In this document: positions 31,780-53,546 of the stretch, piece by piece
How positions within the stretch are numbered: position 1 is the stretch's first letter
Layout: each line of letters starts with the position of its first letter
DNA from: a bacterium
GTDB lineage: Bacteria > SAR324 > JACQKK01
Direction of reading: 5' to 3'
Length of the DNA stretch: 64,000 nt
Assembly (NCBI GenBank): GCA_965240465.1
Contig: OZ251219.1
Coordinates: forward strand, 416,001 to 480,000
Made by a program: the position numbers and the translations under genes
The notes under the pieces: model-generated
Database searches by the model: none
What the model saw: the letters and a program-made list of their open reading frames with translations, nothing else
What the model was told of the DNA's origin: nothing

Positions 31780-31926
31780 TCACTCCCGCCTTAATCACTT
31801 CTGCCCTAATCACTCCTCCCTAATCACTTCTGCCCTAATCACTCCTCCCTAATCACTTCTGCCCTAATCACTCCTCCCTAATCACTTCTGCCCTAATCAC
31901 TCCCGCCCTAATCACTCCCGCCCTAA
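31774..31926. repeat. 14/15-nt x10 repeat starting at a stop codon, with 29-nt higher-order period
   Basis: CC(C/T)TAATCACT followed by CCCG, TCTG or CCT. Confidence 0.95.
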
Positions 31927-31984
31927 GTCAATTGATCCCTGATTGTTTCCTTTCAGGCGACCGATGATTTGTTTTTGGGGATTG

Positions 31985-32756: not shown

Positions 32757-32969
32757 AATGTACTCCTATTCATTATGTCAACTGCCTAACAAAAACACTG
32801 CTAAGCACTACTGCCCTCACGCTACCATCACTCAGCCTAAAAGTAAATTCATCTACAATATCTGTAAATGATTTGTTTTGATTAAGTATTTTCCCCATGG
32901 ATTACTTGATTTAGGAGGGCATTCATAGTAAATTATTAGTGAAGGACTGTTAGCTAGGTCGGAAAATAC

Positions 32970-34577: not shown

Positions 34578-34738
34578 CATTGGACTACAGAACATTGACA
34601 GAGCAACTAAACCTAGTCCTAAATCTTATTTAATTACTAGTTATTTTTGGGAAATACCGCTTATAAAAAACATCACTATTATGCCTGTTAATTAATAATA
34701 AATAAAATTATCCTTGCCTCAAACATATAATAATAACT

Positions 34739-35374: not shown

Positions 35375-35447
35375 TAAACCCCCCTCGGATTGACTTGCAC
35401 CAGTAACCTTGGCTTATCCCTCTAATATACTGACTAACCCAAAAGAA

Positions 35448-39017: not shown

Positions 39018-39494
39018 CTAAGTATATCTTTCCTTGAACAAACTTGACCTTGACTGATTTTTACCCAAATTTCGCTACTAATAACAATAATTCCAACTGA
39101 ATAATAACTCTGTCTTAGGCGGCAATCAAAATAAACTCTCCTCCTATGCTCTTACAAAAACTCCTCCAAAGCGAGAATATATTTTTCGCCAGCTATTAAA
39201 TCATTTGATTGCTCTTTGGATATATCAGCATAGCTAGATTCTCAGGATAAAAACAGAAAAAACTTGACACACTAGCTGAAAAAATATACAATTCCCTACT
39301 CTCGTTTATACCGATTGCCATTAGTAGCCTAGTAATAGATATGGGATATTAAATGAAACCTCAATTAGACTGGTAGTACTACTTTCATTTGCTAGTAGCT
39401 GAATAATTGGTTGTACACAGGTTTTTGATGCCGAAGCTTTGCTTGATATTATTGGGGAATTCTTTAAGCTGCAGATTATAAAAAGGACAAAGCC

Positions 39495-41303
39495 TTGAAC
39501 AAAAAAATACTGGCTATATTTTGGTTAATTTCCATGCTGATGCCTACCTCAGCTTTAGCACGAGATGTGTTTACCGACCGATCATCATTGTTAAGCATCA
39601 TAGAGTTTGGGGTGGTGTTCTTGGCAGCGTATCAGCTGGCATTTTATTTTTTCGTAAAAAATCAACTCCAAGTTCTATTAGAATTACATTTTATCGGTTG
39701 GGGATTGTACTTGTTTGGCATTTTATCACCTCTGTCAAAGAGTGTTAGTGATCTTGCCCTTAACTTTGACAATGAGTACTGGAATTTTGTAATAGGAGCT
39801 TTTGGAGTTGCGTTATTAATGTATGTAGCCAAACAGAACCCTACTCCTATCAACCGTTATGTTAAGCCTTTTCAACTGGGGATGATCGGCTTTTTTGGCT
39901 TTAGTGTAGTCATAGGTTTAGGACGAGCTGATATTGCTCTTACCTTGATTGCCAGCCCTATTCCTCATATTATTTTAGCTTGGCTGATAGCTGCTTCTTG
40001 GCTGAGCAATTCTTATATCCACTATAAATATCAGAAACATGAAAAACACCCCCATAAAATTAATTGGCTACCAGAACTATTCCTAGGATGCGGTTGGGGA
40101 CTTACCCTACTAGCCATCTTGTTGGGGAGCTGGGGAACAAATCGCTGGTTGCCCGTTGGTACGGAATTTTATCTGGTGAACATTATCTTTATGGTCTGCA
40201 GTCCTATCTTAATTATTCAGCTAGGAGGTTTCTTAAGGAATGTTCAACAGCAACGGTCCGAAGCCATGGATGATGTGCTTTTGGAAAAAGACAAGGTACT
40301 TTTAGAAAAAGACAAGGTCCGTCGTATAACAGACACCGCCGATAAATTCATTCCCAAACAGTTTTTGGAACTGCTAAGCAAGAAGGAAGTCACCGAAATA
40401 CACAATGGAGAAGCCGTCGAGCGGAATCTGACTGTACTGTTTTCTGATATTTGTACTTTTACTCGCTTGTCGGCTAACATGAGCCCTGAGGAAAATTTTG
40501 AATTTCTGAACAATTATTTCAATGGGATGGGAAATATCGTCTATCGTCATAGTGGCTTCATAGATAAATTCATTGGCGATGCTATTATGGCTATTTTTGG
40601 CCGCCAGCCAGAAGATGCTATTGAATGTGCCATTTTACTCCAAAGATGGTTACGCTTGTACAACCTTCTTCGTAAAGATAAAAACTCAAATCCCATTATT
40701 ACCGGAATAGGCATTAACTCCGGACCCACCATGATTGGAGTACTAGGCACCAACAATCGCTTAGATAGCACTGTCATCGGCGATACCGTTAATTCAGCTT
40801 TTCATGTGGAAGCCCTCACCCGTTTTTACGATGCTAAGATACTGATTACCGAAAACACCTACCAAGGACTTAAAAACCCTGCTCAATTCCCTGTTAGGAA
40901 TCTGGGTAGCACCCACATAAAGGGACACAATGATACCCTAAATATCTACGAAGTGCTGGCAGGCGACCCCCCTGATATTCGTAATAAAAAAATCTCTCTC
41001 ACTCCCTATTATGAAACTGCCATTGTTCGTATCAAGGAAAACAAATACGAAGACGCCCTCGCCCTTCTTAAAAAATGCCTAGTATGTTACCCACAAGATA
41101 AACCCTCCTGCTTGCAAATTGACCGTTGTATTAAAGGCATTCAAGAACAAAAAACTGCTTCGCATTATAAAATTTCCACCTCTCTACCAATCGAAACCAC
41201 CGCAGAATACCCCCATACAAAAATCACGGGGGTGACCTCCGATGTGAATAAACCAGAATCTCTCTCCGATGAAGAACAAATGAGGACCATCCTCCCTAAC
41301 TGA
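39495..41303 (+). CDS. Membrane-bound class III adenylate/guanylate cyclase domain protein
   Basis: About 7 TM segments, then LFSDI..FT, IDKFIGDAIMA, GIGINSG, TVIGDTVN and IKG. Confidence 0.9.
   Translation: MNKKILAIFWLISMLMPTSALARDVFTDRSSLLSIIEFGVVFLAAYQLAFYFFVKNQLQVLLELHFIGWGLYLFGILSPLSKSVSDLALNFDNEYWNFVIGAFGVALLMYVAKQNPTPINRYVKPFQLGMIGFFGFSVVIGLGRADIALTLIASPIPHIILAWLIAASWLSNSYIHYKYQKHEKHPHKINWLPELFLGCGWGLTLLAILLGSWGTNRWLPVGTEFYLVNIIFMVCSPILIIQLGGFLRNVQQQRSEAMDDVLLEKDKVLLEKDKVRRITDTADKFIPKQFLELLSKKEVTEIHNGEAVERNLTVLFSDICTFTRLSANMSPEENFEFLNNYFNGMGNIVYRHSGFIDKFIGDAIMAIFGRQPEDAIECAILLQRWLRLYNLLRKDKNSNPIITGIGINSGPTMIGVLGTNNRLDSTVIGDTVNSAFHVEALTRFYDAKILITENTYQGLKNPAQFPVRNLGSTHIKGHNDTLNIYEVLAGDPPDIRNKKISLTPYYETAIVRIKENKYEDALALLKKCLVCYPQDKPSCLQIDRCIKGIQEQKTASHYKISTSLPIETTAEYPHTKITGVTSDVNKPESLSDEEQMRTILPN
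40275..40318. repeat. 21-nt x2 in-frame repeat in the cyclase linker (VLLEKDK)
   Basis: GT(G/A)CTTTT(G/A)GAAAAAGACAAG x2. Confidence 0.85.
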
Positions 41304-41405
41304 TAACTAACTACTGGTGAGAATCCTTACCCAAATCATCGCACAAATCCTTGCCAAAACTCCACCGAATAAACTGATACTCCCCACCCCTCCTCTCGCA
41401 CTACT

Positions 41406-41444
41406 GCAGACACTCTTATCGCAGGCACTCTTATCGCAGGCACT
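41406..41444. repeat. 15-nt x2+ repeat spanning a stop codon
   Basis: CACTCTTATCGCAGG x2. Confidence 0.87.
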
Positions 41445-42369
41445 TCTCAAAAAAAGCAATCGTAGGCACTAACCCCTCCCGCAAACCAACCTTAGGCTTC
41501 CAACCTAACTGACGCTCTGCTAATCCAATGTCGGGACATCTCTGCCTGGGCTCATCTTCGCGAGCTGGCAGATATTTTATGTCCGAGCGTGAATTGGTCA
41601 ACTCTCTTATTGTATCTGCCAACTCCAACATATTTATCTCGGTCGGATTACCCAAATTCACAGGCCCCACTAATCCCTCCTTGTTCATCATCAAATGCAT
41701 CCCTTCTACCAAATCGGAAACATAACAAAATGAACGCGTCTGAAGTCCAGACCCATAAAGGGTCAAAGGCTTATTTCGCAACGCCTGACAAATAAAATTG
41801 CTCACCACCCGTCCATCGTCTGGTTGCATAAAGGGCCCGTAAGTATTGAAAATACGTACCAAACACACATCCACCCCATATTGCCGATAATAATCCATCA
41901 GCAACGATTCAGAAGCTCGCTTGCCTTCGTCATAGCAAGAGCGTACCCCCAATGGATTAACATTCCCCCAATAATCCTCAGTCTGAGGATGCTGCTGAGG
42001 ATCCCCATACACCTCTGAAGTAGAAGCAAATAACAACCGAGTTCCTTTTCCTCTGTCTCTCAGAGCCTCTAGTACCCGCAACATCCCCAAAACGCATGTA
42101 CGCCAAGTACCTACCGCATCCCGTTGATAATGCACCGGAGACGCAGGACACGCCAAATGATACACCGCTACCATCTCACTCAAATCCACCCCATCACACA
42201 CATTTCCCTCCCGAACCCGAAAATCCTTTCCCAATAAAGAACTCACATTCCCCTTACTGCCAGTATAAAAATTATCCATACAGCACACCCGATGACCCGC
42301 CTCCAACTCCATCCGACATACATGGCTGCCTATAAAACCCGCACCCCCAGTTATCAACACATTCTTCAT
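41431..42369 (-). CDS. UDP-glucuronic acid decarboxylase family SDR
   Basis: TGGAGFIGSH, HLACPASP.HYQ, STSEVYGDP, RSCYDEGKR, RIFNTYGP, DGRVVSNF. Confidence 0.93.
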   Translation of the reverse strand: MKNVLITGGAGFIGSHVCRMELEAGHRVCCMDNFYTGSKGNVSSLLGKDFRVREGNVCDGVDLSEMVAVYHLACPASPVHYQRDAVGTWRTCVLGMLRVLEALRDRGKGTRLLFASTSEVYGDPQQHPQTEDYWGNVNPLGVRSCYDEGKRASESLLMDYYRQYGVDVCLVRIFNTYGPFMQPDDGRVVSNFICQALRNKPLTLYGSGLQTRSFCYVSDLVEGMHLMMNKEGLVGPVNLGNPTEINMLELADTIRELTNSRSDIKYLPAREDEPRQRCPDIGLAERQLGWKPKVGLREGLVPTIAFFEKCLR

Positions 42370-42617
42370 CCACTGCTTTCCGTAAAAAATCTACCCAAAT
42401 ACCGATATGCCTAGTACCTCTGCTGGCAATTCATGATCAACCCCTTTAATTCCCCTATTATCCTGTCTGCGATATGGTAGCAAGTTTTATAATAAATTCT
42501 AAATATGTAAGCAGAGTAAAAATAGTACTCATTTACACCAGTAGCCTGCCAAAGTGGTTTGAAATATGAGAGGATAACAAGAGCAATTATTTGGCTTGTT
42601 GTTGATGGAGAAATCAA

Positions 42618-44351
42618 GTGGGAGAGTGTAAAGGATTAGCTCAGCGTTTACGTCCGAAGCTATTTAAGGAGTTACTAGGTCAAGAGTTAACCGCAGAGGC
42701 TTTAAGTACAGCCGTGAGTAGTGGTCGTTTGGCACAGGCATTTTTGTTTAGTGGCCCTAGGGGTGTAGGCAAGACCAGTGCAGCTCGCATTTTGGCTCGG
42801 GCGTTGTTGTGTGAGCATCGTGGTGAGGGAGGAGAGCCGTGCAATAATTGTGATATTTGTGAGTCCATTCTCAGGAATGCCTGTGTGGACGTGCAAGAAA
42901 TGGATGCTGCTTCTAATCGGGGGATAGACAGTATTCGGGAGTTGCGTAAGAACGCCAAGTATGTTCCTTCTCGGGCATCTCGTAAGGTGTACATTATGGA
43001 TGAGGTGCATATGCTGACGATGGAGTCCTTCAATGCCTTATTGAAGATATTGGAAGAACCTCCCCCGCATGTGACCTTTATTTTTGCTACCACAGAATCC
43101 CAGAAAATACCTAGTACGGTGCTTTCCCGATGTCAGCGTTTTCAATTTGCTAGATTATCAGGAGAACAGATAGCCAAGCATTTAGGGGAGGTTGCCCGAC
43201 AAGAGGGAGCTGAGTTATCAGAACGCAGCTTATCAGCCTTATCTCAGCATGCCCATGGTAGCATGCGGGATGCCCTAATGGGCTTAGATCAAATATGGGC
43301 ATTCGCAGGTAAAAAAGCCCAAGCTGGCAAGATCCTGGAAATGCTGGGCTTGCTGGAAGCAAATGCAGTCTGGCAAGTGCTAGAAGCTGTGCTAGAACAA
43401 CAACCAGCTAAGGCTCTGGTAGCCCTAGATGAAGTCTATCAGCAAGGAGGATCCCTAGGCACACTCCTAGGACAATTGATAGAAGAAGTCAGCGGACTGA
43501 GCATGCTACTAGCTTTGCAGTCAAATTCGCCCGAGCTTAAAAATAATTCAGAGATCCTCTCAGCCGCCCGTATCTCGGTAGAAGCCCGAGATTTTCTAGC
43601 CCGAGCAGAGCTCTCAACCGATGTTCTACAGCAGCTGTTTTATGTCTTGCTGGAGGCAGAACAGCACATGCGCCAAAGCAGATTTGAAAAAATGTGCCTA
43701 GAAATGGCGATACTAAAGGGTTGCCAGCTAAAATCACTAGCAGGAATAGGGTTTCTACTAGAAGAAGCCCGCCACGCCGTCCAAAGCGATAAAATAGAAC
43801 GGGATAAAATAGAGCATGGTAAAATAGAGCGGGATGCCACAGAACAGGGTACCGCAGGGCAGAATAATACTCATGATAAGCTACCCTCTGTCTCTAATAC
43901 TGAAAACTCCCCCAAACCCACAAACCAGCCCCCAGCTCAGACCGTAGAACAGGCAGAACCCCAGCAAGCCAGCTCGGCAGAAACAAGCAATCCCGTCCTC
44001 ACCGATCCCGTCCTCACCGATCCCGTCCTCACCGATCCCGTCCTCACCGATCCCGTCCTCACCGATCCCGTCCTCACCGATCCCGTCCTCACCGATCCCG
44101 TCCTCACCGATCCCGTCCTCACCACCCCACCAGTCCAACCCTCCCCTTACACCCCCCACAATACCGCACCAACTAAGGCAAATAATCCCAGCTATACCCC
44201 CGCAGAACTTGAAACCCTCCAACACCCCGCGGTTCAGCAAATTAAAAACTCGTTTCCATCCCATGAAATCCTAAAAGTGAAATTAAAAAAACCTCCCAAC
44301 CTCCCTACCCCCCTCACCCCCCACATCTCCTCCCCTCCTGATCCCGCCTGA
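42618..44351 (+). CDS. dnaX: DNA polymerase III subunit gamma/tau
   Basis: GPRGVGKT, zinc-binding cysteines, EMDAASNRG, DEVHML, NALLK.LEEPP, SRCQRF. Confidence 0.96.
   Translation: MGECKGLAQRLRPKLFKELLGQELTAEALSTAVSSGRLAQAFLFSGPRGVGKTSAARILARALLCEHRGEGGEPCNNCDICESILRNACVDVQEMDAASNRGIDSIRELRKNAKYVPSRASRKVYIMDEVHMLTMESFNALLKILEEPPPHVTFIFATTESQKIPSTVLSRCQRFQFARLSGEQIAKHLGEVARQEGAELSERSLSALSQHAHGSMRDALMGLDQIWAFAGKKAQAGKILEMLGLLEANAVWQVLEAVLEQQPAKALVALDEVYQQGGSLGTLLGQLIEEVSGLSMLLALQSNSPELKNNSEILSAARISVEARDFLARAELSTDVLQQLFYVLLEAEQHMRQSRFEKMCLEMAILKGCQLKSLAGIGFLLEEARHAVQSDKIERDKIEHGKIERDATEQGTAGQNNTHDKLPSVSNTENSPKPTNQPPAQTVEQAEPQQASSAETSNPVLTDPVLTDPVLTDPVLTDPVLTDPVLTDPVLTDPVLTDPVLTTPPVQPSPYTPHNTAPTKANNPSYTPAELETLQHPAVQQIKNSFPSHEILKVKLKKPPNLPTPLTPHISSPPDPA
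43990..44123. repeat. Perfect 15-nt x9 in-frame repeat in dnaX (PVLTD)
   Basis: ATCCCGTCCTCACCG x9 (last copy lacks the final base). Confidence 0.97.
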
Positions 44352-45004
44352 TGAGCGTCCCACTCTCCCTAGAAAAACTGGTGACCGCCCTAGCAAGACT
44401 CCCCGGCGTTGGACAAAAAACCGCCCAACGACTAGCCTTCTCACTACTACGCGATCAATCAGGGCTGTCCGACCAACTCGCTACCGCAATTAGCAACGCC
44501 CGCCGCGAAATCCATTTCTGTGAACGCTGCTTCAGCTACGCCGAAAACCCTCTCTGCCCCATCTGCCAAGACCCTCGCCGCGACCACTCCAGCATCTGCG
44601 TGGTGGAACAACCCGTGGATATCTACGTGATTGAACGCAGCAGAGTCTTTGATGGGGTCTATCATGTGCTGATGGGTAGCATCTCACCCCTAGATGGCAT
44701 CGGCCCCCAACAACTTAAAATAGCAGAGCTCCTACAACGAATAACCCAAGCCAACCAAACCCCTCAACCAATCCAAGAAATCATCATGGCTACCAATCCC
44801 TCCATGAACGGAGAAGCCACTGCCCTGCACCTCGCCAATCTCTTGAAGGAACATGACCTACGCCTAACTCGGCTCGCACGGGGCATCCCCGTAGGAGGTA
44901 GCTTGGAATATGCCGATGACATAACCTTAGACCAAGCCTTCCAAGGACGACAAAACCTCAGCCCTAGCACCGCCAAACCCTCTACCGCAACACCCAGAAA
45001 TTAG
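44351..45004 (+). CDS. recR: Recombination mediator RecR
   Basis: LPGVG.KTAQRLAF, C4 zinc finger, ICVVE, YHVL, GEATA, RLARGIP.G. Confidence 0.97.
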   Translation: MSVPLSLEKLVTALARLPGVGQKTAQRLAFSLLRDQSGLSDQLATAISNARREIHFCERCFSYAENPLCPICQDPRRDHSSICVVEQPVDIYVIERSRVFDGVYHVLMGSISPLDGIGPQQLKIAELLQRITQANQTPQPIQEIIMATNPSMNGEATALHLANLLKEHDLRLTRLARGIPVGGSLEYADDITLDQAFQGRQNLSPSTAKPSTATPRN

Positions 45005-45008
45005 ATAA

Positions 45009-48000
45009 ATGCGAAGGATAGAAATATTCACCAAGTCATCCTACCCAGATCCCCTCGGGGAGAAATTAAAGCAACGCATCAATAAAGAAAGCAAATTCAC
45101 TCTAAAAAACCTAAGAACTGCTAATATCTACAAGATGGCTGATGATTTTCTGCCCTCCCAGTCACCTGAAAATCTACGCCAACTAGGTCAGGAATTATTT
45201 GCCGATCCAGTGCTTTCCCAGTGCTGTGTCAATGGCGAGCTGCTAAGAGAACCAGACTTTGACTGGTATGTAGAGGTAGGTTTCAAGCGTGGGGTAACCG
45301 ACAGCCTCGGACGCACCGCTCAAGAAAATCTCTGCTGGCGTTGCAACATCCCCACCCCCCCCATTCAATCGGTGTTCAGTACCCAGGGTTATTTCCTATT
45401 CCTAAGCAATGAATTAGACAAAGATGAAATCCTCTACCTAGCTGAAAACTGGATGGCTAATCCGCTGGTGCATGATGTAGACCCTTTGTCTAAGCAGGAG
45501 ATAGAGTTCATCAATGATTATTTGGCAAAAACAGAATACAAGAACATAACTCATGATAAAATATTCGTTGATCTGCCATCACAATTTTTCTCCTTACCCC
45601 AAGTAGAATTAAGTGCTCCGTCCATTAAATTACACCTACTTGATGTCACCAACCCACAACCGCTGTCTGAGGATATATTGCTATTCTTGTCTAGGGATAG
45701 AACGCTAGCCTTGTCTGAAGAGGAACTCAAAGCCTTGGTGAACCATTTCATTAGCCCAAAAATCCAAGAGCAGCGAAAAAAAATAGGCTCGGAGGAATTC
45801 TTTACTAATGTGAAGCTGGAAGAATGCATTACCGATGTGGAGCTAGAAGTACTGGCACAAACTTGGAGTGAACACTGCCTGCATAAGATATTCAAGGCTC
45901 GCATTCACTATCAAGAGGGATCTGAAAAACCCAGCTGTATTAATTCCCTATTTGATACTTATATTAAAGGAGCGACCCAAGCGATCCGCAAAAAACTAGG
46001 CCAGCGAGACCACTGCTTATCGGTATTTGTGGATAATGCGGGAGTTATGCTTTTGGATGATAATTGGGGCTTGGCAGTTAAGGTGGAAACTCATAATACG
46101 CCTTCGGCACTGGATCCCTATGGGGGAGCTTTAACGGGCATTTTAGGGGTTAATCGGGATGCCTTTGGAACTGGCAGAGGGGGTAAGTTAATATTCAATA
46201 CCGATGTATTTTGCCTAGCTCCGCCTGATGATGATCCACCGATCGGTAGTGATTTATTAGCCCCTAGTCGTATCATGGAGGGGGTCATTCGGGGGGTGGA
46301 GCATGGAGGAAATGTATCTGGCGTACCTACGGTAAATGGCTCCCTGTGTTTTGATGCCCGCTTTATGGCTAAGCCGCTAGTTTTCTGTGGCAGCGGAGCC
46401 TTGATTCCTCGCCAGTTGGGGGGTCGTCCAGGGCATGAGAAATGGGTCGCAGTCGGAGATTTAGTTGTCATGTGCGGGGGACGCATTGGTCGGGATGGCA
46501 TCCATGGGGCAACTATTTCCTCGCAGGAACTCAAGCGGGACATTCCCTTAGGGGTGGTGCAAATTGGGGATCCCATCACCCAAAAGAAGCTGTTTGATTT
46601 CCTCCTCCTAGCCCGCGATCGGGGCTTATTTAATGCCATCACCGATAATGGTGCGGGGGGATTATCTTCTTCGGTAGGAGAAATGGCGATCATGAGCGGA
46701 GGGGCAAAATTGCACTTAGAGCGTGCTCCCTTAAAATACAAGGGCTTGCAGCCTTGGGAGATTTTGCTTTCTGAATCCCAAGAACGCATGACTCTGGCAG
46801 TTCCTCCGGCCCAAGAAAAAGAGCTTTTGCAGCTGGCAGCAGAAATGCAGGTAGAGTGTACCGTACTAGGTGAATTTACTGACTCGGGGCAATTTGTCAT
46901 TTATCATAAGGGAAAAATAGCAGGCTACTTGGATATGGATTTCCTCCATCACGGCACACCCCAGATGGAACTGAAAGCCGAATGGAAGGCCCCAGTTTAT
47001 CATCCTGAGTTTTCATCAAAGCCTGCCCCCGCTGGTGACCTAACCGCTTGGCTACTACGAGTGCTAGGACGCTTAAATGTGTGTAGTAAGGAGAGCATTG
47101 TGCGTCAATACGATCATGAAGTACAAGGATGCTCGGTGATAAAGCCTCTTTGCGGTGAAGGTCAAGATGGTCCCAGTGATGCTGCCGTACTGAGGACAAG
47201 CCCCGATAGCCCTGCTGGCATTGCGATAGCCCATGGCATTTGCCCTCGCTACGCCGATTGGGACACCTACAACATGGCTGCCTGTGCTATGGATGAGGCA
47301 GTACGCTCCTTGGTGGCAGTGGGTGCTGATCCCAGTCACGCGGCGGCTTTGGATAATTTCTGTTGGTGCGACCCTTTACCGTCTGCCAGCAATCCTGATG
47401 CCAGCTATAAAACGGCTCAATTAGTACGGGCCGCCCGAGCTCTTTATGACACCGCTTGTGCCTACCAAATTCCCTTTATCTCGGGCAAGGACAGCATGAA
47501 AAACGACTTTGTGATGGGTAATTTCCGCCTATCCATTCCTCCCACCGTGCTGGTCACTGCCGTTGCCGTTGTCCCCGAGGTACAAAGAGCGATTTCCATG
47601 GACGTCAAAAAACCCGGCGATTTGGTTTATATCATCGGACGCAGCAGGGGAGAAATGGGTGGCTCTGAGTTCCTAGCCGAATTCTTGCCAGCAAAACATA
47701 CCGAAAAGAACCTATCCTCCGCTGATTCCCATCCTCCCAAACTTTACGGACATCCCCCGAAAACTTATCCTGAGGAACATCTGAAAATATATCAAAAGAT
47801 GTATAACGCCATCCAAAAGGGTTGGATTTGCTCTGCTCATGATTGCTCCGATGGCGGTGCTGCCGTTGCTTTGGCAGAGAGTGCCTTCGCGGGAGGCTAT
47901 GGCATGCGGCTCCAGCTAAAAGCTTGGATAAAGAAGGAAAAACTCCCTCTGGCACAACTGCTTTTTTCGGAAAGCCCCGGGCGTTTGATTGTAACCATTA

Positions 48001-48179
48001 GACCACAGCACCAAAAATCCTTTGAAGAAAAATTCGCAGAGACCTCCTATTGCTTGCTAGGCAAGGTTACCGAAGACCAAAATTTCACTGCCTTAAACGA
48101 AAAATCCACCAGCCTGAATACTACTTTAGAAACCCTTAAAAAAACTTGGCAAGAACCCCTTAAGCACTCCCCCCCTTAA
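45009..48179 (+). CDS. purL: Phosphoribosylformylglycinamidine synthase subunit PurL
   Basis: QTWSEHC.HK, VETHN.PS, GRDGIHGA, DNGAGG, SESQERM, QYDHEVQ, SGKDSM, HDCSDGG. Confidence 0.95.
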   Translation: MRRIEIFTKSSYPDPLGEKLKQRINKESKFTLKNLRTANIYKMADDFLPSQSPENLRQLGQELFADPVLSQCCVNGELLREPDFDWYVEVGFKRGVTDSLGRTAQENLCWRCNIPTPPIQSVFSTQGYFLFLSNELDKDEILYLAENWMANPLVHDVDPLSKQEIEFINDYLAKTEYKNITHDKIFVDLPSQFFSLPQVELSAPSIKLHLLDVTNPQPLSEDILLFLSRDRTLALSEEELKALVNHFISPKIQEQRKKIGSEEFFTNVKLEECITDVELEVLAQTWSEHCLHKIFKARIHYQEGSEKPSCINSLFDTYIKGATQAIRKKLGQRDHCLSVFVDNAGVMLLDDNWGLAVKVETHNTPSALDPYGGALTGILGVNRDAFGTGRGGKLIFNTDVFCLAPPDDDPPIGSDLLAPSRIMEGVIRGVEHGGNVSGVPTVNGSLCFDARFMAKPLVFCGSGALIPRQLGGRPGHEKWVAVGDLVVMCGGRIGRDGIHGATISSQELKRDIPLGVVQIGDPITQKKLFDFLLLARDRGLFNAITDNGAGGLSSSVGEMAIMSGGAKLHLERAPLKYKGLQPWEILLSESQERMTLAVPPAQEKELLQLAAEMQVECTVLGEFTDSGQFVIYHKGKIAGYLDMDFLHHGTPQMELKAEWKAPVYHPEFSSKPAPAGDLTAWLLRVLGRLNVCSKESIVRQYDHEVQGCSVIKPLCGEGQDGPSDAAVLRTSPDSPAGIAIAHGICPRYADWDTYNMAACAMDEAVRSLVAVGADPSHAAALDNFCWCDPLPSASNPDASYKTAQLVRAARALYDTACAYQIPFISGKDSMKNDFVMGNFRLSIPPTVLVTAVAVVPEVQRAISMDVKKPGDLVYIIGRSRGEMGGSEFLAEFLPAKHTEKNLSSADSHPPKLYGHPPKTYPEEHLKIYQKMYNAIQKGWICSAHDCSDGGAAVALAESAFAGGYGMRLQLKAWIKKEKLPLAQLLFSESPGRLIVTIRPQHQKSFEEKFAETSYCLLGKVTEDQNFTALNEKSTSLNTTLETLKKTWQEPLKHSPP

Positions 48180-48205
48180 GCACTCCCGCCCCTTAAGCAC
48201 TCCCC
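48156..48205. repeat. 16/17-nt x3 repeat spanning the purL stop codon
   Basis: CCCTTAAGCACTCCC(C/G) x3. Confidence 0.9.
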
Positions 48206-48240
48206 ACCCGCAACCACTCATACTCTAAGTACCCCCCACC

Positions 48241-49065
48241 ATGAGCATTGACACCGCCATCATCACCGGATTGGGCATCAACTGTGAAACAGAAACCCAG
48301 CAAGCCTGCTATCAGGCGGGGTTCGGGGTGTCCCTGATTCCCCTGACCAGCCTTTATCGCCACGGCACCAGCCAACTGGAAAAAACCCGACTGATAATCT
48401 TCCCCGGCGGCTTCCTAGATGGTGATGACCTCGGCTGTGCCCAAGCTTGCGTCAATCGTTTCCGATATTGCCCCCTTCCCGATGGAAAAAATTTCCTAGA
48501 ATACCTGCTGAATTTTATCCAAGGGGGGGGCTTAATCTTAGGCATCTGCAATGGCTTTCAGCTACTGGTCAAACTCGGACTACTGCCAGAGCCAAGCTCC
48601 CAAACACTATCAACACCTAGCACCCCTCTACCCAAATTTACGCTCACCCACAATGCCCACGGACGTTTTGAAAATCGCTGGGTGGAGCTTCTTGTTAATC
48701 AGAAATCTCCCTGTATCTTCACCAAAGATCTCACTAGAATCAGCCTCCCCATTCGCCATGGCCAAGGACAACTGCTGTCCGACCGCCCAGACCAGTTAAA
48801 AAATAACCCGACATTCTGCCCTCTCTACTATTGCGACCCCCAAGGGAAACCCACCGAAGAATATCCTCATAATCCTAATCACTCGCCACACGGCATGGCG
48901 GCACTCTGCGACCCCAGTGGACGCATCCTCGGACTAATGCCACATCCCGAAGCTGCTTGCCAAATCACTCAACACCCCTCCTGGACACGCTCCCCATCTA
49001 AACCAGCAGGACTATCCATCTTCCAAAACGCTTATCGTTTTCTAGAACAAAATAAACAGCCTTAA
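48241..49065 (+). CDS. purQ: FGAM synthase glutaminase subunit PurQ
   Basis: GINCE.ET, PGGFLDGD, GICNGFQ, GLMPHPE. Confidence 0.93.
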   Translation: MSIDTAIITGLGINCETETQQACYQAGFGVSLIPLTSLYRHGTSQLEKTRLIIFPGGFLDGDDLGCAQACVNRFRYCPLPDGKNFLEYLLNFIQGGGLILGICNGFQLLVKLGLLPEPSSQTLSTPSTPLPKFTLTHNAHGRFENRWVELLVNQKSPCIFTKDLTRISLPIRHGQGQLLSDRPDQLKNNPTFCPLYYCDPQGKPTEEYPHNPNHSPHGMAALCDPSGRILGLMPHPEAACQITQHPSWTRSPSKPAGLSIFQNAYRFLEQNKQP

Positions 49066-49254
49066 ATAAATTAAGGTGACCGTCTTACTTGCACCAGATA
49101 GGAGGTACCGATTATCGGCATTATTTTTCTGCCCAGCTAAAACTATACCCCGACAACTTCCCGATTAAATAGCGTTTGGCTACTCTGTGGTATTTTTAGC
49201 ACAATTTAATTAATTAGCCTAAATGTAAATTCATTCCCTTAAAGGCAGTAATAA

Positions 49255-50634
49255 TTACTTGCCGATGCAAAATCTAGCAAAGATTTTGTCTAGGATATCA
49301 TCGGTGGTGGTGCTACCGACTATGTCGCTGAGGTCTTGGAGTGCTTGGTTGATGTCTTCGGCGAGCCAGGCTTGGTGTTGGGGTTGGGTGATGGTTTGCA
49401 AGGCTTGATTGATATTTTTAAGGGCTTTTTGGGCTGATTGGAGTTGTCGGGCATTGGTGATCAGGGCGTGTTCGTAGTGGGGTTTGGTTTCGCTGAGGGC
49501 TAGTTGTTGGAGTTTTTGTTGGAGTTGTGTAAGTCCGTCGCGGTGGAGAGCAGAGATGTTAATGCAGTTCCAGTTTTCAAGCTGTGTTTGCCAGAGGGGA
49601 TTTGGAGTGAGGTCTTTTTTATTGATGACGATCAGGGTTTGGGCGGGGTTGAGATCTTTGAGCAGTTTTTGGCTGTGGGAGGGGATTTTGGTAGATCCAT
49701 CCAGTACTAGTAGGGTGATGTCCGCCAGTTGGATGGCTTGGTGGGTACGTTTTATGCCTGCTTGTTCAATTTGGTTTTTGGCATTGCGGAGTCCGGCGGT
49801 ATCGGTGAGGGTGAATGCCAGTCCTGCGATTATGATTGTTCCTTCAATGGTATCTCTGGTGGTGCCTGGTTGCTGAGTAACAATGGCACGTTCTTCAGCG
49901 AGGAACAGGTTGAGCAAGCTGGACTTACCCACATTGGTAGCTCCGACAATGGCTACGGTTAAGCCTTGGAGCATCATTCGCCCTTTGGGAGCATCTTTGA
50001 CCATGGTTAGTAAATTTGTTTGGGCTTGCTGCAAACGTTGCTGGATTTCTTTCTTGCTGGAGAAATTGACATCGGACTCATCAGAGAAATCAATGCTGGC
50101 AGCCAGATAAGCAGCCGCTTCTTGCAATAGTTCCTTCAGGGCTTGGATGCTCTGCTGCAGTCGTCCGCGTAGCTGGTTGATAGAGACGTCCAAGGCTTGA
50201 GGAGAGCGAGCCGTGATCAGCTCCCCTACCGCTTCTGCTTGGGTGAGATCCAATATACCATTGACAAAGGCACGTCTAGTGAACTCCCCTGGCTGTGCCA
50301 ATCTGGCACCAGCCTCCAAGAGGGCTTCCAGCACCAATTGCAGCAGTAATGGCCCTCCATGACAATGCAATTCCACCACTTCCTCACCCGTATAAGAGCG
50401 GGGAGCAGGCATCACAACAGCTAGGGCTTGGTCTAGCATCTTTCCCCGATGCCGTAAATATCCCAATCCCAAGTGACGCTCCTTGAAGCTACTCAAGGGT
50501 TTATCATTCTTAGCAATAAACAACTGCTGAGCAATAGCTACCGCTTCATTCCCACTCAGGCGTACGATCCCCACTGCACCCATTCCAGTAGCAGTAGCAA
50601 TGGCTACAATAGTATCCTGGCTGGTGAGTTGCAT
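49255..50634 (-). CDS. mnmE: tRNA modification GTPase MnmE
   Basis: DTIVAIAT, SYTGE, GEFTRRAF, NVGKSSL, PGTTRD, DTAG, NKKD, C-terminal FCIGK. Confidence 0.97.
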   Translation of the reverse strand: MQLTSQDTIVAIATATGMGAVGIVRLSGNEAVAIAQQLFIAKNDKPLSSFKERHLGLGYLRHRGKMLDQALAVVMPAPRSYTGEEVVELHCHGGPLLLQLVLEALLEAGARLAQPGEFTRRAFVNGILDLTQAEAVGELITARSPQALDVSINQLRGRLQQSIQALKELLQEAAAYLAASIDFSDESDVNFSSKKEIQQRLQQAQTNLLTMVKDAPKGRMMLQGLTVAIVGATNVGKSSLLNLFLAEERAIVTQQPGTTRDTIEGTIIIAGLAFTLTDTAGLRNAKNQIEQAGIKRTHQAIQLADITLLVLDGSTKIPSHSQKLLKDLNPAQTLIVINKKDLTPNPLWQTQLENWNCINISALHRDGLTQLQQKLQQLALSETKPHYEHALITNARQLQSAQKALKNINQALQTITQPQHQAWLAEDINQALQDLSDIVGSTTTDDILDKIFARFCIGK

Positions 50635-50732
50635 ACCATCCTACCTTATGAGCAACTTATAGGGTGCTCGGCTTTGACCAGTTCAGGTCAGACTTGCTCT
50701 ATTATTTCCTTTAATGGATTTTTTCACTACCT

Positions 50733-50836
50733 TTCTTCTTTATGCATTCTTCTTTATGTGTCCTTCTTCGTGTGTTCTTCTTTATGTTGTCTCACTAGTA
50801 CTTTCTTATCTGCACATTCTTCTTTATGTTGTCTCA
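50733..50836. repeat. 14-nt degenerate intergenic repeat
   Basis: TTCTTCTTTATG.. x4, plus a second TTCTTCTTTATGTTGTCTCA copy. Confidence 0.8.
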
Positions 50837-50897
50837 TAGATGATCAATTCAACCAAGTACCTGCCAGAATATCCTAAACCACTCAATAGACATCGCC

Positions 50898-52445
50898 ATG
50901 AACCTCCAAGCAACTAAAAAAGACCCGCCCCAGATCCAAGGATTAACCGTCCTCAACAATATACAACCACATCTGTTGGTAATTTTCGGTGCCTCTGGTG
51001 ATTTAACCAAACGCAAGTTGATTCCAGCTCTTTATAGTTTGCACTGCAAGAAGCTATTGCCCGAGAAGTTTGCTGTGTTAGGGGCCTCTCGCTCACCTTT
51101 ATCTAGGGAAGAATTTATTCAGTCCGTGCGTACAGAGTGTCAAACGTCCCTTGATTCACCTTCTTTTACTGGCGAGGAGTGGAATTCATTTGCCCGCCGG
51201 TTGGAATATCAATGCCTGCAATACGAGGAATTCGCTAGCTATCAAGAATTGGCTACCACCATCAAGCAATTGGACCAGCGTTACGATTTGCAGTGCAATC
51301 GGTTATTTTATCTAGCTACCCCGCCTTCTGTATTTCCCAAAGTGGTGGCACAGCTGGAGCAATCATCTTTGATCAGTCGGGTTGCCGAGCCTTGGTTTCG
51401 CTTAATTGTGGAAAAGCCATTTGGGAGAGACTTAGCTTCGGCACACCAGCTAAACAACATTTTGCTAAGTACTCTGTCTGAGTCGCAGATTTATCGTATT
51501 GATCATTATTTGGGAAAAGAAACAGTCCAGAATTTGCTTAGTTTTAGGTTTGCCAATGGGATATTTGAACCGCTTTGGAATCATCGTTATGTAGATTGCG
51601 TGCAGATTACCTCAGCTGAAACAGTAGGGATGGAAGGACGCGGTCGTTATTTTGAGGAAGCTGGCATTTTGCGTGACATGGTACAGAACCATTTATTTCA
51701 GGTACTATGTTTATTTGGCATGGAGCCTCCTGCCTCACTGGAGGCGGATGCGATTCGGGATGAGAAGGTGAAGTTATTGCGTTGTTTGCGTCCTATTCCA
51801 GAGGAGAAAATGGATGACCATGTCGTGCGGGCTCAGTATTCCAAAGGGAATATCGGGGGAGGGTCTGTCTGCGGCTATTTGGAAGAAGCCGATGTCCGTC
51901 CTGATTCTACCACCGAGACATACATAGCCATGTGCTTGTATGCCGATAATTGGCGTTGGAGTAAGGTTCCCTTTTTGCTAAGAGCTGCCAAACGCATGCC
52001 GTTCAAATTCACCGAGATTAACATTCATTTTCGTCAGGTTCCTCACTGGCTATTTAGTCAGACTAGCTTACCCCCCAACCAGCTTAACATCCATATCCAG
52101 CCTAATGAGGGAATTTCCCTTCAATTCGGCTGTAAGAAACCCGGCTCGCAGCTGCACATTTCACCTGTTAAAATGGAGTTTAATTATGGCTCCTCCTTTG
52201 GCGGAAATACTCCCGAAGCCTATGAAAGACTCATCCAAGACGCCATGCTTGGCGATAGTACCCTCTTCATCCGCAACGATGAAAATGAAGCCGCTTGGTC
52301 TTTCATAAGCCGTATCCATCAGGCTTGGCAGCAGCAGCAATGCCGCCGACTACCCACCTATGCCGCGGGAGATTGGGGACCTAAGGAAGCCGAGCAACTA
52401 GCCGCCCGCCATAAAATTAACTGGGAAAAGTACTCCCGCGGTTGA
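50898..52445 (+). CDS. zwf: Glucose-6-phosphate 1-dehydrogenase
   Basis: GASGDL..RKL.PAL, EKPFG, YRIDHYLGKE, RDMVQNH. Confidence 0.97.
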   Translation: MNLQATKKDPPQIQGLTVLNNIQPHLLVIFGASGDLTKRKLIPALYSLHCKKLLPEKFAVLGASRSPLSREEFIQSVRTECQTSLDSPSFTGEEWNSFARRLEYQCLQYEEFASYQELATTIKQLDQRYDLQCNRLFYLATPPSVFPKVVAQLEQSSLISRVAEPWFRLIVEKPFGRDLASAHQLNNILLSTLSESQIYRIDHYLGKETVQNLLSFRFANGIFEPLWNHRYVDCVQITSAETVGMEGRGRYFEEAGILRDMVQNHLFQVLCLFGMEPPASLEADAIRDEKVKLLRCLRPIPEEKMDDHVVRAQYSKGNIGGGSVCGYLEEADVRPDSTTETYIAMCLYADNWRWSKVPFLLRAAKRMPFKFTEINIHFRQVPHWLFSQTSLPPNQLNIHIQPNEGISLQFGCKKPGSQLHISPVKMEFNYGSSFGGNTPEAYERLIQDAMLGDSTLFIRNDENEAAWSFISRIHQAWQQQQCRRLPTYAAGDWGPKEAEQLAARHKINWEKYSRG

Positions 52446-52483
52446 TGGCAGTCTGGCTTAAAGATCTAAGTCTCAGATATTTT

Positions 52484-52706
52484 CCTAACCGAGTTACTGC
52501 CTAACTGATTTGCTACCTACCCGAGTTACTGCCTACCCGAATTACTACCTACCCGAGTTACTGCCTACCCGAATTACTGCCTAACTGATTTGCTACCTAC
52601 CCGAGTTACTGCCTACCCGAATTACTGCCTAACTGATTTGCTACCTACCCGAGTTACCACCTACCCGAGTTACCTACCCGAATTACTACCTACCCGAATT
52701 ACTGCC
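52484..52706. repeat. 16-nt x14 intergenic repeat with 48-nt higher-order structure
   Basis: CCTACCCGA(G/A)TTACT(G/A) units interleaved with CCTAACTGATTTGCTA. Confidence 0.95.
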
Positions 52707-52750
52707 CCACCAAGATACCGCCCTGCTGGGCTTAGCAATTATTTATAGGC

Positions 52751-53482
52751 ATGCCCCCCATGGATATTTCGCCTGCTCCCACACTGCATGTTAATTCCCA
52801 AGCTTCCACCCTGATAGCCCAATGTGCGGCTCTGCTGGACCAGATTGCCCAAGAGGCTATTCAGCAACGCGGTCGTTGTACCATTTCTCTTTGCGGTGGG
52901 AGTAGTCCTCAGCCTCTTTTTTCTTATTGGGCGCGTTCTAGTGGTATTTCTTGGTCGCAGGTATGGCTGTTTTGGGGAGATGAACGCTGTGTACCTCCTA
53001 ATGAACCCGAATCCAATTATCGCCTAGTAGCAGAACACTTGCTAGCCAATCTTTCTGGCACCAAAAGACCACAGATTTTCCGCATTCATGGCGAAAGACC
53101 CACTCCCTCAGTCGCAGCTACTTACTACCACAAACTGCTCCTAAAACTGCTCGGTCGCCAAGGACAACTAGACCTTGCCCTACTAGGCATTGGAACTGAT
53201 GGACATACCGCTTCAATTTTTCCTCAGCAAGCATCAATCATCAACGAACAAAAACTTTGGTGTAAAGCCACTCCTCATCCCACTAGCTTCATCCCTCGCA
53301 TTACCCTCACCTACCCTCCCCTGACCCAAGCTAGAAATCGCATCTTCTTTGTTCCCGACCAAAAAAAATCACCCATCCTAAAACAAATGCTCTCCCAGAA
53401 ACTCCAACCCCTTAAATGGCCCGCTCAGACCCTCTTATTGCTTCCCAATACCCACCTATTTGCATATCCACTCGGAAGCTGA
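52751..53482 (+). CDS. pgl: 6-phosphogluconolactonase
   Basis: LCGGSSP, FWGDERCVP, ESNY, LLGIG.DGHTAS, RITLT; follows zwf. Confidence 0.92.
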   Translation: MPPMDISPAPTLHVNSQASTLIAQCAALLDQIAQEAIQQRGRCTISLCGGSSPQPLFSYWARSSGISWSQVWLFWGDERCVPPNEPESNYRLVAEHLLANLSGTKRPQIFRIHGERPTPSVAATYYHKLLLKLLGRQGQLDLALLGIGTDGHTASIFPQQASIINEQKLWCKATPHPTSFIPRITLTYPPLTQARNRIFFVPDQKKSPILKQMLSQKLQPLKWPAQTLLLLPNTHLFAYPLGS

Positions 53483-53546
53483 ATAAATATCGCCCGACCG
53501 ACTGTCCTTACAAACCTCCTGTAGCTCCTCTGTTTTCCTCCAGAAA

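What the first reader, a model, noticed from the sequence alone, without database searches (positions are those of the whole stretch)
39400..53500. Kilobase-scale G/T-to-C/A strand-skew sawtooth that ignores gene orientation
Seen: on the + strand, composition repeatedly starts G/T-rich just right of an AT-rich intergenic region, drifts to C/A-rich, then resets abruptly. Hand counts: 42181-42240 has 25 C and 3 G; 42781-42840 has 25 G and 11 C; 44281-44340 has 33 C and 1 G; 48961-49020 has 26 C and 6 G; 49501-49560 has 23 G and 5 C. Resets occur at a divergent junction (about 42500) and at a convergent junction (purQ/mnmE, about 49150), so sense-strand bias alone does not explain them. The same trend is visible by eye at 5600-12100, 16800-19950, 21500-24450 and 60850-63150. 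Known: bacterial GC skew normally switches only at origin and terminus, and a C-rich to G-rich switch is the origin-type polarity. Inference: a strand-asymmetric mutational process spreads bidirectionally from many intergenic sites (dispersed replication or repair initiation, or pervasive bidirectional transcription). It may share a cause with the tandem repeats.
Basis: partly seen in the sequence, partly recalled or inferred. Interest (0 to 1): 0.82.

Follow-up and report, generated by a model that had tools for sequence, protein, structure and literature searches.

The report
Gene-anchored G-to-C skew sawtooth
In this small-genome uncultured bacterium and its sister species, most genes start G-rich and end C-rich on their own coding strand, even at silent codon positions, which draws a sawtooth in strand composition whose cause is still unknown.

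Summary
The sawtooth is real. All five hand counts are exact, and 300-bp GC skew in 39.4-53.5 kb has SD 0.245 against 0.083 in shuffles. It is genome-wide. It is anchored to genes, not blind to them. On the sense strand, silent-site GC skew falls 5'->3' (4-fold sites -0.05 to -0.34; 773 of 1,106 genes; p=8e-58). Such a gradient is reverse-complement symmetric, so + and - genes draw the same + strand sawtooth. It reaches non-coding flanks and amino-acid-coding positions. It is not made by tandem repeats. It rides on an ordinary replication skew with one dnaA-linked origin.

The sister species shares it, and the local landscape is conserved (r=0.64 over 754 segments). Samples of 25 other genomes of the phylum lack it, including four small genomes.

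Dispersed replication origins are not supported. The slope is fixed, the skew reaches a plateau, resets weaken inside operons, and no motif marks the resets. The cause is open. I favour a transcription-linked strand-asymmetric mutation pressure over selection on the transcript.

The closest published case is in yeasts, with the opposite polarity (PMC3315797). This scan has already noted gene-anchored skew sawtooths in other genomes.

The parts
39018..39494 (.). Reset 1: AT-rich divergent intergenic region (GC 0.34) where + strand skew jumps from -0.49 to +0.13
   Evidence: jump +0.59 at 39319
39495..41303 (+). Unit 1a: 602-aa gene with no family hit. Sense GC3 skew falls +0.15 -> -0.56
   Evidence: The G001 orthologue runs +0.24 -> -0.54
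41431..42369 (-). Unit 1b: NAD-dependent sugar epimerase/dehydratase gene. Sense strand G-rich throughout (GC3 +0.80, +0.51, +0.58), so the + strand stays C-rich up to reset 2. There is no reset at the convergent junction 41303/41431
   Evidence: G001 gives +0.78, +0.46, +0.57
42370..42617 (.). Reset 2: divergent intergenic region, the strongest jump in the window (+0.91 at 42552)
42618..44351 (+). Unit 2a: dnaX. Codon choice drifts from GAG/AAG/TTR/CGT at the start to GAA/CAA/CTA/CTC at the end. GC3 skew runs +0.44 -> -0.86
43990..44123 (+). 15-bp tandem repeat (8.9 copies) inside the C-rich tail of dnaX. It is part of the local extreme but not the cause of the gradient
   Evidence: masking repeats leaves mean d = 0.180
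44351..45004 (+). Unit 2b: recR. Its start overlaps the dnaX stop. There is no reset, and it stays C-rich (GC3 -0.61, -0.65)
45009..48179 (+). Unit 3a: purL, with an extra N-terminal part of about 270 aa. Skew restarts inside the gene near 45.9 kb (about -0.2 -> +0.23) and then falls to about -0.3. The hump is kept in G001
48241..49065 (+). Unit 3b: purQ, C-rich throughout (GC3 -0.47, -0.54), with no reset after purL
49066..49254 (.). Reset 3: convergent purQ/mnmE junction, jump +0.79 at 49263. Both genes end C-rich on their own sense strands
49255..50634 (-). Unit 4: mnmE. Sense GC3 skew runs +0.38 -> -0.78, which reads as + strand +0.55 -> -0.25 from left to right
   Evidence: The profile is kept in G001, where the mnmE-zwf-pgl block is inverted
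50898..52445 (+). Unit 5a: zwf, hump-shaped (GC3 +0.04, +0.22, +0.44, -0.15, -0.32). The same shape occurs in G001
52751..53482 (+). Unit 5b: pgl, GC3 -0.06 -> -0.63. The next reset lies at the convergent junction near 53.5 kb

Best explanation
Shown. This is a gene-anchored compositional gradient. On each gene's own sense strand G exceeds C near the 5' end, starting about 200 nt upstream of the start codon. The excess falls by about 0.26 skew units per kb, reaches a C-rich plateau after about 1.5 kb, and resets within about 100 nt after the stop codon. Because this shape is unchanged by reverse complementation, genes on both strands draw one and the same + strand sawtooth. It is strongest at silent sites, drags amino-acid-coding positions along at about a fifth of that strength, and is added to a normal leading/lagging skew from a single dnaA-linked origin. 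It is a stable trait of this genus. Inferred. The cause is most likely a strand-asymmetric mutation pressure tied to transcription. The non-template strand would be most exposed or least protected near the start of each transcription unit or cistron, for instance where nascent RNA is not yet covered by the lead ribosome and can form RNA-DNA hybrids. That effect would fade with distance, leaving a C-over-G baseline on the sense strand. The lesion or repair step involved is not identified.
For: Gradient at pos3 (+0.10 -> -0.16) and at 4-fold sites (-0.05 -> -0.34), seen in each of the 8 four-fold codon families. First third exceeds last third in 773 of 1,106 genes, p=8e-58, with equal size on both strands and in both replichores. 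Fixed slope and plateau in absolute distance. Non-coding flanks: sense skew is +0.05 to +0.11 at -200..0, and the flip comes 50-100 nt after the stop. Amino-acid-coding positions follow: r=0.56 (549 segments, slope 0.21) between GC4 skew and the shift of pos1+2 skew relative to outgroup orthologues, while the control against the outgroup's own pos1+2 skew gives r=-0.01. The 5'-versus-3' change at 4-fold sites points the same way in composition space as the leading-versus-lagging change in this genome (cosine 0.98), as expected if one kind of strand exposure underlies both. Resets grow with the gap between co-directional genes: about 0.07 below 15 nt, 0.11 at 15-39 nt, 0.16 at 40-149 nt and 0.20 at 150 nt or more. 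Start values fall with gene rank in tight runs: +0.19, +0.12, +0.06, -0.03. Lineage-specific: G001 has it (p=9e-19), and samples of 25 other genomes of the phylum do not. The trait comes with a drop in G+C from 51-70% in the family's other sampled genera to 45-49%, and with a load of tandem repeats covering 6% of the genome. This suggests altered DNA metabolism.
Against: At 4-fold sites only G and C move (C .229->.301, G .220->.158) and A and T stay flat. Simple cytosine deamination does not predict that. Purine content at these sites drops, although recent changes in tandem arrays are 75% transitions (236 of 316) and G<->C transversions are only 13 of 316. The one direct test of mutation bias was inconclusive. 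On the G-rich strand the C->T rate is 1.31 times the G->A rate (95% CI 0.82-2.11), whereas equilibrium mutation bias needs about 2.07 and pure selection 1.0. The highly expressed str operon and ribosomal-protein operons show only mild skew and no gradient. Hump-shaped profiles (zwf, purL) are kept in both species. The 42 genes over 3 kb are flat at about -0.27. Silent-site skew correlates with protein hydrophobicity, and the outgroup's hydrophobicity predicts it, which could equally point to selection on the transcript. None of the candidate genes tested separates the genus from its kin.
Confidence: 0.45

Rival explanations
1. Selection on the transcript or on transcription itself. G is favoured and C avoided early in each message, and the reverse later. 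Possible reasons are control of elongation or nucleotide supply (the adaptive idea of McLean and Tirosh, with the sign reversed), keeping RNA locally unable to fold, or shaping Rho loading towards 3' ends.
For: Only G and C move at 4-fold sites, while 2-fold sites shift G->A and T->C. That is what a 'more C, less G' preference would give in every codon family. The local landscape is kept gene by gene between two species whose silent sites are close to saturation (r=0.64 over 754 segments; 4-fold identity .362 against .255 expected), including non-monotonic shapes. It correlates with a property of the product, hydrophobicity. Rho is present and intrinsic terminators are rare (0.7-3.4% of genes). 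In yeasts the same A/T-flat signature was seen and an adaptive reading was left open (PMC3315797, sections 4 and 9 read).
Against: The pressure changes protein sequences and matches the replication-linked composition vector (cosine 0.98), which selection on RNA does not predict. Relatives also have Rho, NusG and CTP synthase and also have few intrinsic terminators, yet they have no gradient. The effect is weakest in the most expressed genes examined, where selection on transcripts should be strongest. The skew starts upstream of the start codon, but my data cannot say whether that DNA is transcribed.
Confidence: 0.3
2. One reading: many intergenic sites act as small bidirectional starts of replication or repair synthesis, giving origin-type skew jumps with diffuse termination between them, like the N-domains of mammalian genomes at a thousandth of the scale.
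For: The jumps have origin polarity (C-rich to G-rich) at all junction classes. The 4-fold composition change equals the leading/lagging change.
Against: There is one ordinary skew minimum beside dnaA and one maximum. The decline has a fixed slope and a plateau and is not stretched between neighbouring sites. 42 long genes are flat. Resets shrink inside tight operons and persist at convergent junctions with gaps under 50 nt, where there is hardly any intergenic DNA. No enriched 8-mer marks the reset regions: the best has 13 against 4 occurrences.
Confidence: 0.05
3. Fixed lagging-strand priming sites at gene borders. Within each Okazaki unit the template part exposed first stays single-stranded longest, which would give a sawtooth of the observed shape in both replichores.
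For: The shape and its independence of gene strand fit. By thirds of genes, + strand skew runs about +0.17 -> 0 in the G-rich replichore and about 0 -> -0.2 in the C-rich one, as this model predicts.
Against: The model allows only one sign per replichore. Yet the window, in the C-rich replichore, reaches +0.55, and 150-nt bins span +0.19 to -0.20 averaged over both replichores. Resets depend on operon structure. No motif marks the borders. The per-gene profiles are kept in a block that is inverted between the two species.
Confidence: 0.04
4. It is a by-product with no process of its own: amino-acid content, codon-family make-up, tandem repeats, imported DNA, or faulty gene calls.
For: GC3 skew does depend partly on amino-acid content. 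Leu and Val four-fold families prefer G, and hydrophobic genes are G-richer.
Against: The gradient is present in each of the 8 four-fold families. It survives standardisation by family and masking of repeats. It is not predicted by the outgroup's pos1+2 skew (r=-0.01). The same pipeline finds none of it in relatives. The gene-free test (150 rises against 77 falls) needs no gene calls. It is shared by two species, so it is not recent import.
Confidence: 0.02

Closest known systems
[quoted passage not shown]
   Same: The skew changes sign along the coding strand of most genes. It is seen at four-fold sites, shifts amino-acid usage, and extends into flanking non-coding DNA. G and C move while A and T stay nearly flat. 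Strength varies between related lineages. The cause is unresolved between mutation and selection.
   Different: The polarity is reversed: here G-rich 5' and C-rich 3', in fungi C-rich 5' and G-rich 3'. This is a bacterium with operons and coupled translation, so the RNA polymerase II co-factor idea cannot apply. Here the effect at four-fold sites is about five times that at coding positions, whereas in fungi the two were similar. Here there is a fixed slope with a plateau, whereas the paper describes three regimes.
Replication-linked skew: the origin/terminus switch of bacterial chromosomes, and the N-shaped skew domains of mammalian genomes (Touchon et al. 2005, seen only in the reference list of PMC10030826; the content is recalled)
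   Same: The upward jump has origin polarity and is followed by a gradual decline. The composition change is the same as between leading and lagging genes of this genome (cosine 0.98).
   Different: The scale is 1-3 kb. The pattern is anchored to genes and operon structure, has a fixed slope with a plateau, and is superimposed on a normal single-origin skew.
Transcription-associated strand asymmetry: excess C-to-T changes on the non-transcribed strand in E. coli (Beletskii and Bhagwat 1996, seen only as a reference in PMC10030826), and promoter-proximal positive GC skew with R-loops in human genes (Ginno et al. 2013, PMC3787257, search listing and start of the abstract only)
   Same: The sense strand is G-rich just downstream of the gene start, with a length scale of about a kilobase.
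   Different: In bacteria this asymmetry is described as uniform along a gene, not as a gradient that changes sign. Here the T-over-A component is missing at four-fold sites. A link to expression could not be tested.
Earlier notes of this scan on other genomes (e1-5666717, giant-virus-like, same polarity; e1-3893603 Planctomycetota, e1-4912818 CPR bacterium, e1-5650632 and e1-5848586 phages, opposite polarity)
   Same: Gene-anchored sawtooth at silent sites, lineage-specific, cause unknown.
   Different: They concern other organisms. I did not re-examine them. They are AI notes, not independent evidence.

Membership tests
Origin-type skew switch (oriC or N-domain model) | C-rich to G-rich jump on the + strand at the site | tested here: met
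   Jumps of +0.59, +0.91 and +0.79 at 39319, 42552 and 49263. The mean jump is positive in all four junction classes.
Origin-type skew switch (oriC or N-domain model) | The sites are replication starts (initiator gene, shared sequence element) | tested here: not met
   There is one dnaA, at 605,074-606,393, beside the single cumulative-skew minimum at 607,845. No enriched 8-mer occurs in the 201 intergenic regions with the highest jumps when compared with the 403 lowest. Replication itself was not measured.
Origin-type skew switch (oriC or N-domain model) | The decline is stretched linearly between neighbouring sites, whatever their distance | tested here: not met
   The slope is about -0.26 per kb in all length classes, with a plateau near -0.2 after about 1.5 kb. 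42 genes over 3 kb are flat.
Origin-type skew switch (oriC or N-domain model) | Independent of gene and operon structure | tested here: not met
   124 of 150 sharp rises lie at gene borders. Reset size grows with the intercistronic gap.
Gene-anchored opposite GC skews (McLean and Tirosh 2011) | [quoted passage not shown] | tested here: met
   GC3 skew runs +0.10 -> -0.16 by deciles. 773 of 1,106 genes have first third above last third.
Gene-anchored opposite GC skews (McLean and Tirosh 2011) | Present at four-fold degenerate sites and in flanking non-coding DNA | tested here: met
Gene-anchored opposite GC skews (McLean and Tirosh 2011) | Alters amino-acid usage along genes | tested here: met
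   Pos1 skew runs 0.27 -> 0.10 and pos2 -0.05 -> -0.16. The shift relative to outgroup orthologues gives r=0.56.
Gene-anchored opposite GC skews (McLean and Tirosh 2011) | A and T nearly constant along genes | tested here: inconclusive
   They are flat at four-fold sites. Over all positions, however, GC skew and TA skew co-vary (r=0.36 genome-wide, 0.68 in the region).
Gene-anchored opposite GC skews (McLean and Tirosh 2011) | Polarity: C-biased at the 5' end, G-biased at the 3' end | tested here: not met
   The polarity is reversed here. It works like that pattern but is not the same state.
Uniform transcription-coupled strand asymmetry of bacteria | Sense strand G>C and T>A along the whole transcribed gene, scaling with expression | tested here: not met
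   The skew changes sign within genes. The str operon and ribosomal-protein operons show only mild skew. Expression itself could not be measured: no RNA run holds the stretch.
Rho-loading (rut-like) C-rich, G-poor 3' regions | C>G tracts towards 3' ends together with Rho, and this explains the lineage difference | tested here: inconclusive
   C>G at 3' ends is met and Rho is present. But relatives without the gradient also have Rho and as few intrinsic terminators.

The most novel reading that the evidence does not exclude
A so far undescribed bacterial mutational process is anchored to cistron starts. The stretch of DNA behind RNA polymerase whose transcript is not yet covered by the lead ribosome would form RNA-DNA hybrids or stay unwound, so the non-template strand takes strand-specific damage that fades as translation catches up. 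If so, the degree of coupling between transcription and translation would be written into silent sites and could be read from a genome sequence alone. The opposite-polarity sawtooths seen in other lineages would be variants of one phenomenon. This reading fits four observations: weaker resets at translationally coupled junctions, stronger G-skew in membrane-protein genes, the weak effect in ribosomal operons, and the match with the replication-linked composition change.
Probability: 0.25. Interest if true: 0.85.

Novelty: new variant of a known kind. Interest (0 to 1): 0.7.

Why it matters
Bacterial strand skew is usually taught as a two-state signal that flips only at origin and terminus, with a uniform gene-strand term added. 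Here a third, position-within-gene term is larger than either. Silent-site skew per 100 codons has SD 0.41, against 0.20-0.25 in relatives. This term reshapes protein sequences and has been held in place over a long divergence (median 64% amino-acid identity). If mutational, it marks an unknown strand-specific lesion or repair process linked to gene expression in bacteria, and it offers a natural system with a close negative control (the family's other genera). If selective, it shows strong nucleotide-level selection along messages in a small-genome organism, where selection is expected to be weak. There are practical consequences either way. Skew-based origin finders, codon-usage measures and detection of foreign DNA will all misfire on such genomes.

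Tried and rejected
1. Candidate gene losses. rho, mfd, RNase HI, mutS, mutL, topA, uvrA, RNase HII (PF01351), pyrG and nusG are present in both G000 and G001. Family-1 ung was found in none of 5 genomes. The recG model hit only mfd in all 10 genomes. mutY is missing in G000 but present in G001, which also has the gradient. A first miss of RNase HII with TIGR00729 was a model and threshold artefact, corrected.

2. A motif at the resets: none.

3. Tandem repeats as the cause: rejected. Sharp rises are only modestly nearer to repeats (median 252 nt, against 700 nt for all intergenic midpoints).

4. Intrinsic terminators: not enriched in the region (18 found, 17.7 expected) and rare in all six genomes, so they do not discriminate.

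5. Polarised singletons in tandem arrays as a proxy for new mutations: 316 events, too few to decide.

6. Dependence on context, using rearrangements between the species. The 5' skew correlates at r=0.80 with a conserved upstream neighbour (n=116) and r=0.63 with a changed one (n=74). This does not decide.

7. RNA evidence: no RNA holder is listed for the stretch.

8. Genome reduction as a sufficient cause: rejected. Four other small genomes of the class lack the gradient.

9. Literature. Seven full-text searches found no description of an intragenic GC-skew gradient in a bacterium in the held library. Subscription journals are mostly not covered.

Full report
**What was checked first.** In 39400-53500 the GC skew of 300-bp windows has SD 0.245, against 0.083 (maximum 0.108) in 500 shuffles. 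Overlapping windows swing from +0.55 to -0.62. Three sharp rises lie at 39319, 42552 and 49263, that is at two divergent junctions and one convergent one. The genes are ordinary housekeeping genes: a 602-aa gene with no family hit, a sugar epimerase/dehydratase, dnaX, recR, purL, purQ, mnmE, zwf and pgl.

**What the pattern is.** I called 1,106 ORFs of at least 100 aa (85% of the genome) with a crude codon-score method. On the sense strand, GC skew falls steadily from the 5' to the 3' end:
- pos3: +0.10 to -0.16
- four-fold sites: -0.05 to -0.34
- pos1: 0.27 to 0.10
- pos2: -0.05 to -0.16

The first third exceeds the last third in 773 of 1,106 genes (Wilcoxon p=8e-58). The size is the same for + and - genes and in both replichores. 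A sense-strand profile that is G-rich at 5' and C-rich at 3' is unchanged by reverse complementation. A gene on the - strand therefore draws the same left-to-right fall on the + strand as a gene on the + strand. This is why the sawtooth seems to ignore gene orientation, and why convergent, divergent and tandem junctions all show a rise.

Without any gene calls, sharp rises outnumber sharp falls 150 to 77 (p=1.4e-6). 124 of the 150 rises lie in intergenic DNA or within 100 nt of a gene end, while 65 of the 77 falls lie inside genes.

**Anatomy.** In absolute distance, GC3 skew starts at +0.15 to +0.19, falls by about 0.26 per kb, and levels off near -0.2 after about 1.5 kb. The 42 genes longer than 3 kb are flat at about -0.27. 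The sense strand is already G-rich 200 nt upstream of start codons, and the flip comes 50-100 nt after stop codons. So codon choice for translation cannot be the whole story.

At four-fold sites only G and C change (C .229->.301, G .220->.158), while A and T stay at .245 and .30. This holds in each of the eight codon families. At two-fold sites G gives way to A and T to C, and Leu shifts from TTR to CTN. The change has the same direction in composition space as the difference between leading and lagging genes of this genome (cosine 0.98).

Resets are graded by the gap between co-directional genes: about 0.07 for gaps under 15 nt, 0.11 for 15-39 nt, 0.16 for 40-149 nt and 0.20 for 150 nt or more. 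In runs of tightly spaced genes the start value falls with gene rank: +0.19, +0.12, +0.06, -0.03. In the finding's own region, recR (whose start overlaps the dnaX stop) and purQ do not reset. purL restarts inside the gene near 45.9 kb, and zwf is hump-shaped.

**It is not a by-product.** Masking all 770 tandem-repeat arrays (6% of the genome) leaves the gradient at 0.180. Standardising by codon family keeps it. The outgroup's own pos1+2 skew does not predict G000's silent-site skew (r=-0.01). By contrast, the shift of G000's pos1+2 skew away from the outgroup does (r=0.56, 549 segments, slope 0.21). The pressure therefore acts on nucleotides and has altered the proteins.

**Replication.** The genome has an ordinary cumulative-skew minimum at 607,845 and a maximum at 1,562,156. 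dnaA lies at 605,074-606,393 (206.8 bits, under the family cut-off). Leading and lagging genes differ by about 0.2 in GC3 skew. The sawtooth is added on top of this.

The dispersed-origin reading fails on four counts: the fixed slope and plateau, the graded resets within operons, the resets at convergent pairs with gaps under 50 nt, and the lack of any motif.

A model with fixed lagging-strand priming sites gives the right shape. It allows only one sign per replichore, however, and that is not what is seen.

**Relatives.** The same pipeline finds the gradient in the one other species of the genus. This is G001, a closed 1.72-Mb genome with 48.6% G+C, of which I sampled 400 kb. Its deciles run +0.21 -> -0.09 (p=9e-19), and it has 108 sharp rises against 35 falls per Mb.

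The gradient is not found in any of the following samples:
- two other genera of the family and five genomes of the order (40-200 kb each; mean difference -0.046 to +0.013, all p>0.3; 0-10 sharp jumps per Mb);
- nine further genera of the family and two more genomes of the order (9-40 kb each; pooled +0.016, n=146 ORFs, p=0.22), although G011 alone gave +0.125 with 22 ORFs;
- seven more genomes of the order and class, including four small ones of 1.5-2.4 Mb.

Genome reduction alone is therefore not the cause.

Between G000 and G001 (median 64% amino-acid identity; identity at shared four-fold sites .362, against .255 expected by chance) the local silent-site skew per 100 codons correlates at r=0.64 (754 segments, 226 orthologues). 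Against outgroups the correlation is -0.16 to 0.22. In the finding's region the profiles match gene by gene (r=0.79, 42 segments). This includes the block mnmE-zwf-pgl, which is inverted in G001 relative to dnaX-purQ.

**Leads on the mechanism.** None of the hand-picked genes separates the genus from its kin. Intrinsic terminators are rare in all six genomes tested. The str operon and the ribosomal-protein operons show only mild skew and no gradient.

Hydrophobic proteins have G-richer silent sites: Spearman 0.33 after standardising by family (p=7e-29), 0.24 in G001 and 0.05-0.19 in outgroups. The outgroup's hydrophobicity predicts G000's skew (r=0.21), so this is a property of the gene and not a consequence of the pressure.

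A proxy for new mutations, singleton differences among copies of indel-free tandem arrays, gave 316 events. 75% are transitions and 13 are G<->C transversions. On the G-rich strand the C->T rate is 1.31 times the G->A rate (CI 0.82-2.11). This excludes neither mutation bias (about 2.07 needed) nor selection (1.0). No RNA run holds the stretch.

**Reading.** I take four things as shown:
- the sawtooth is a gene-anchored G-to-C gradient at the nucleotide level;
- it is partly tied to transcription-unit structure;
- it is specific to this genus;
- it has been stably maintained.

I infer, with moderate confidence, that a transcription-linked strand-asymmetric mutation pressure causes it. This pressure would be strongest near cistron starts. 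An attractive but untested form is exposure of the non-template strand where nascent RNA is not yet covered by ribosomes. That would fit the graded resets, the membrane-protein effect and the weak effect in ribosomal operons. Selection on transcript composition remains a serious rival. It is favoured by the flat A and T, by the conserved non-monotonic profiles and by the link to the product's hydrophobicity.

**Known parallels.** The closest published pattern is that of unicellular fungi (PMC3315797; abstract and sections 4 and 9 read). There the skews at the two gene ends are also opposite, are seen at four-fold sites, in amino-acid usage and in flanking DNA, and leave A and T nearly flat. 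The polarity is the reverse, and the cause was left open between mutation and selection.

A review of strand asymmetries (PMC10030826; passages read) mentions no such gradient in prokaryotes. My seven full-text searches found none either. The library lacks most subscription journals, so this is not proof of absence.

Earlier notes of this scan report gene-anchored sawtooths in other genomes, of either polarity. They gave me the lead to the fungal paper. I did not re-test them. My TRF run agrees on the repeats. I did not test the taxonomy.

Noticed in passing
G000:C1:255696-271494 (outside the window): Downstream of the intact RNase HI gene (255696-256100), four fragments matching only the last ~40 residues of RNase HI recur every 3.1-3.5 kb (261288, 264802, 267855, 271375), each with a stop inside. 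This looks like a large tandem duplication series that starts within rnhA.
   Followed up: no
G000 whole genome versus G001: The mutY model finds only an Nth-like hit in G000 (59.7 bits) but a full MutY in G001 and in three relatives. G000 seems to have lost mutY. This cannot explain the gradient, because G001 has the gradient too.
   Followed up: partly
G000:C1:605074-606393 (outside the window): The only DnaA match scores 206.8 bits, well under the family cut-off of 343.9. The initiator is therefore divergent, though it sits at the skew minimum.
   Followed up: no
G000:C1:562934-568432 (outside the window): An open frame of 1,867 aa holds two UvrA-like halves in tandem. The same double-length frame occurs in G001 and in several genomes of the order.
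   Followed up: no
window 49255-53482 versus L141-L142 (G001): The block mnmE-zwf-pgl is inverted in G001 relative to the conserved run from the flippase-like gene to purQ. The per-gene skew profiles are nevertheless kept.
   Followed up: yes
window 45009-45830: purL carries an extra N-terminal part of about 270 residues ahead of the region matched by the PurL models (the match starts at residue 275). This part has lower G+C (0.39-0.43), and the skew restarts at about its end.
   Followed up: partly
window 24554-36206: A cluster of six genes for Sel1/TPR-type repeat proteins (they match AlgK-like, MerG-like and MotX-like repeat models, all below cut-off). Two SocA-like antitoxin-family genes lie at 3125-3601 and 32295-32756.
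   Followed up: no
whole genome G000: Genes for hydrophobic (multi-pass membrane) proteins have much G-richer silent sites than genes for soluble proteins: GC4 skew +0.16 against -0.11 among leading genes, and +0.02 against -0.31 among lagging genes. The effect survives standardisation by codon family.
   Followed up: partly
G028 (L173-L175): Another small genome of the class has very uneven local skew (SD 0.204, against 0.097 expected) but no gene-anchored gradient. Its cause was not examined.
   Followed up: no
ten genomes of the family and order: The RecG model matched only the Mfd gene in every genome searched, so a separate recG was not found in this group.
   Followed up: no
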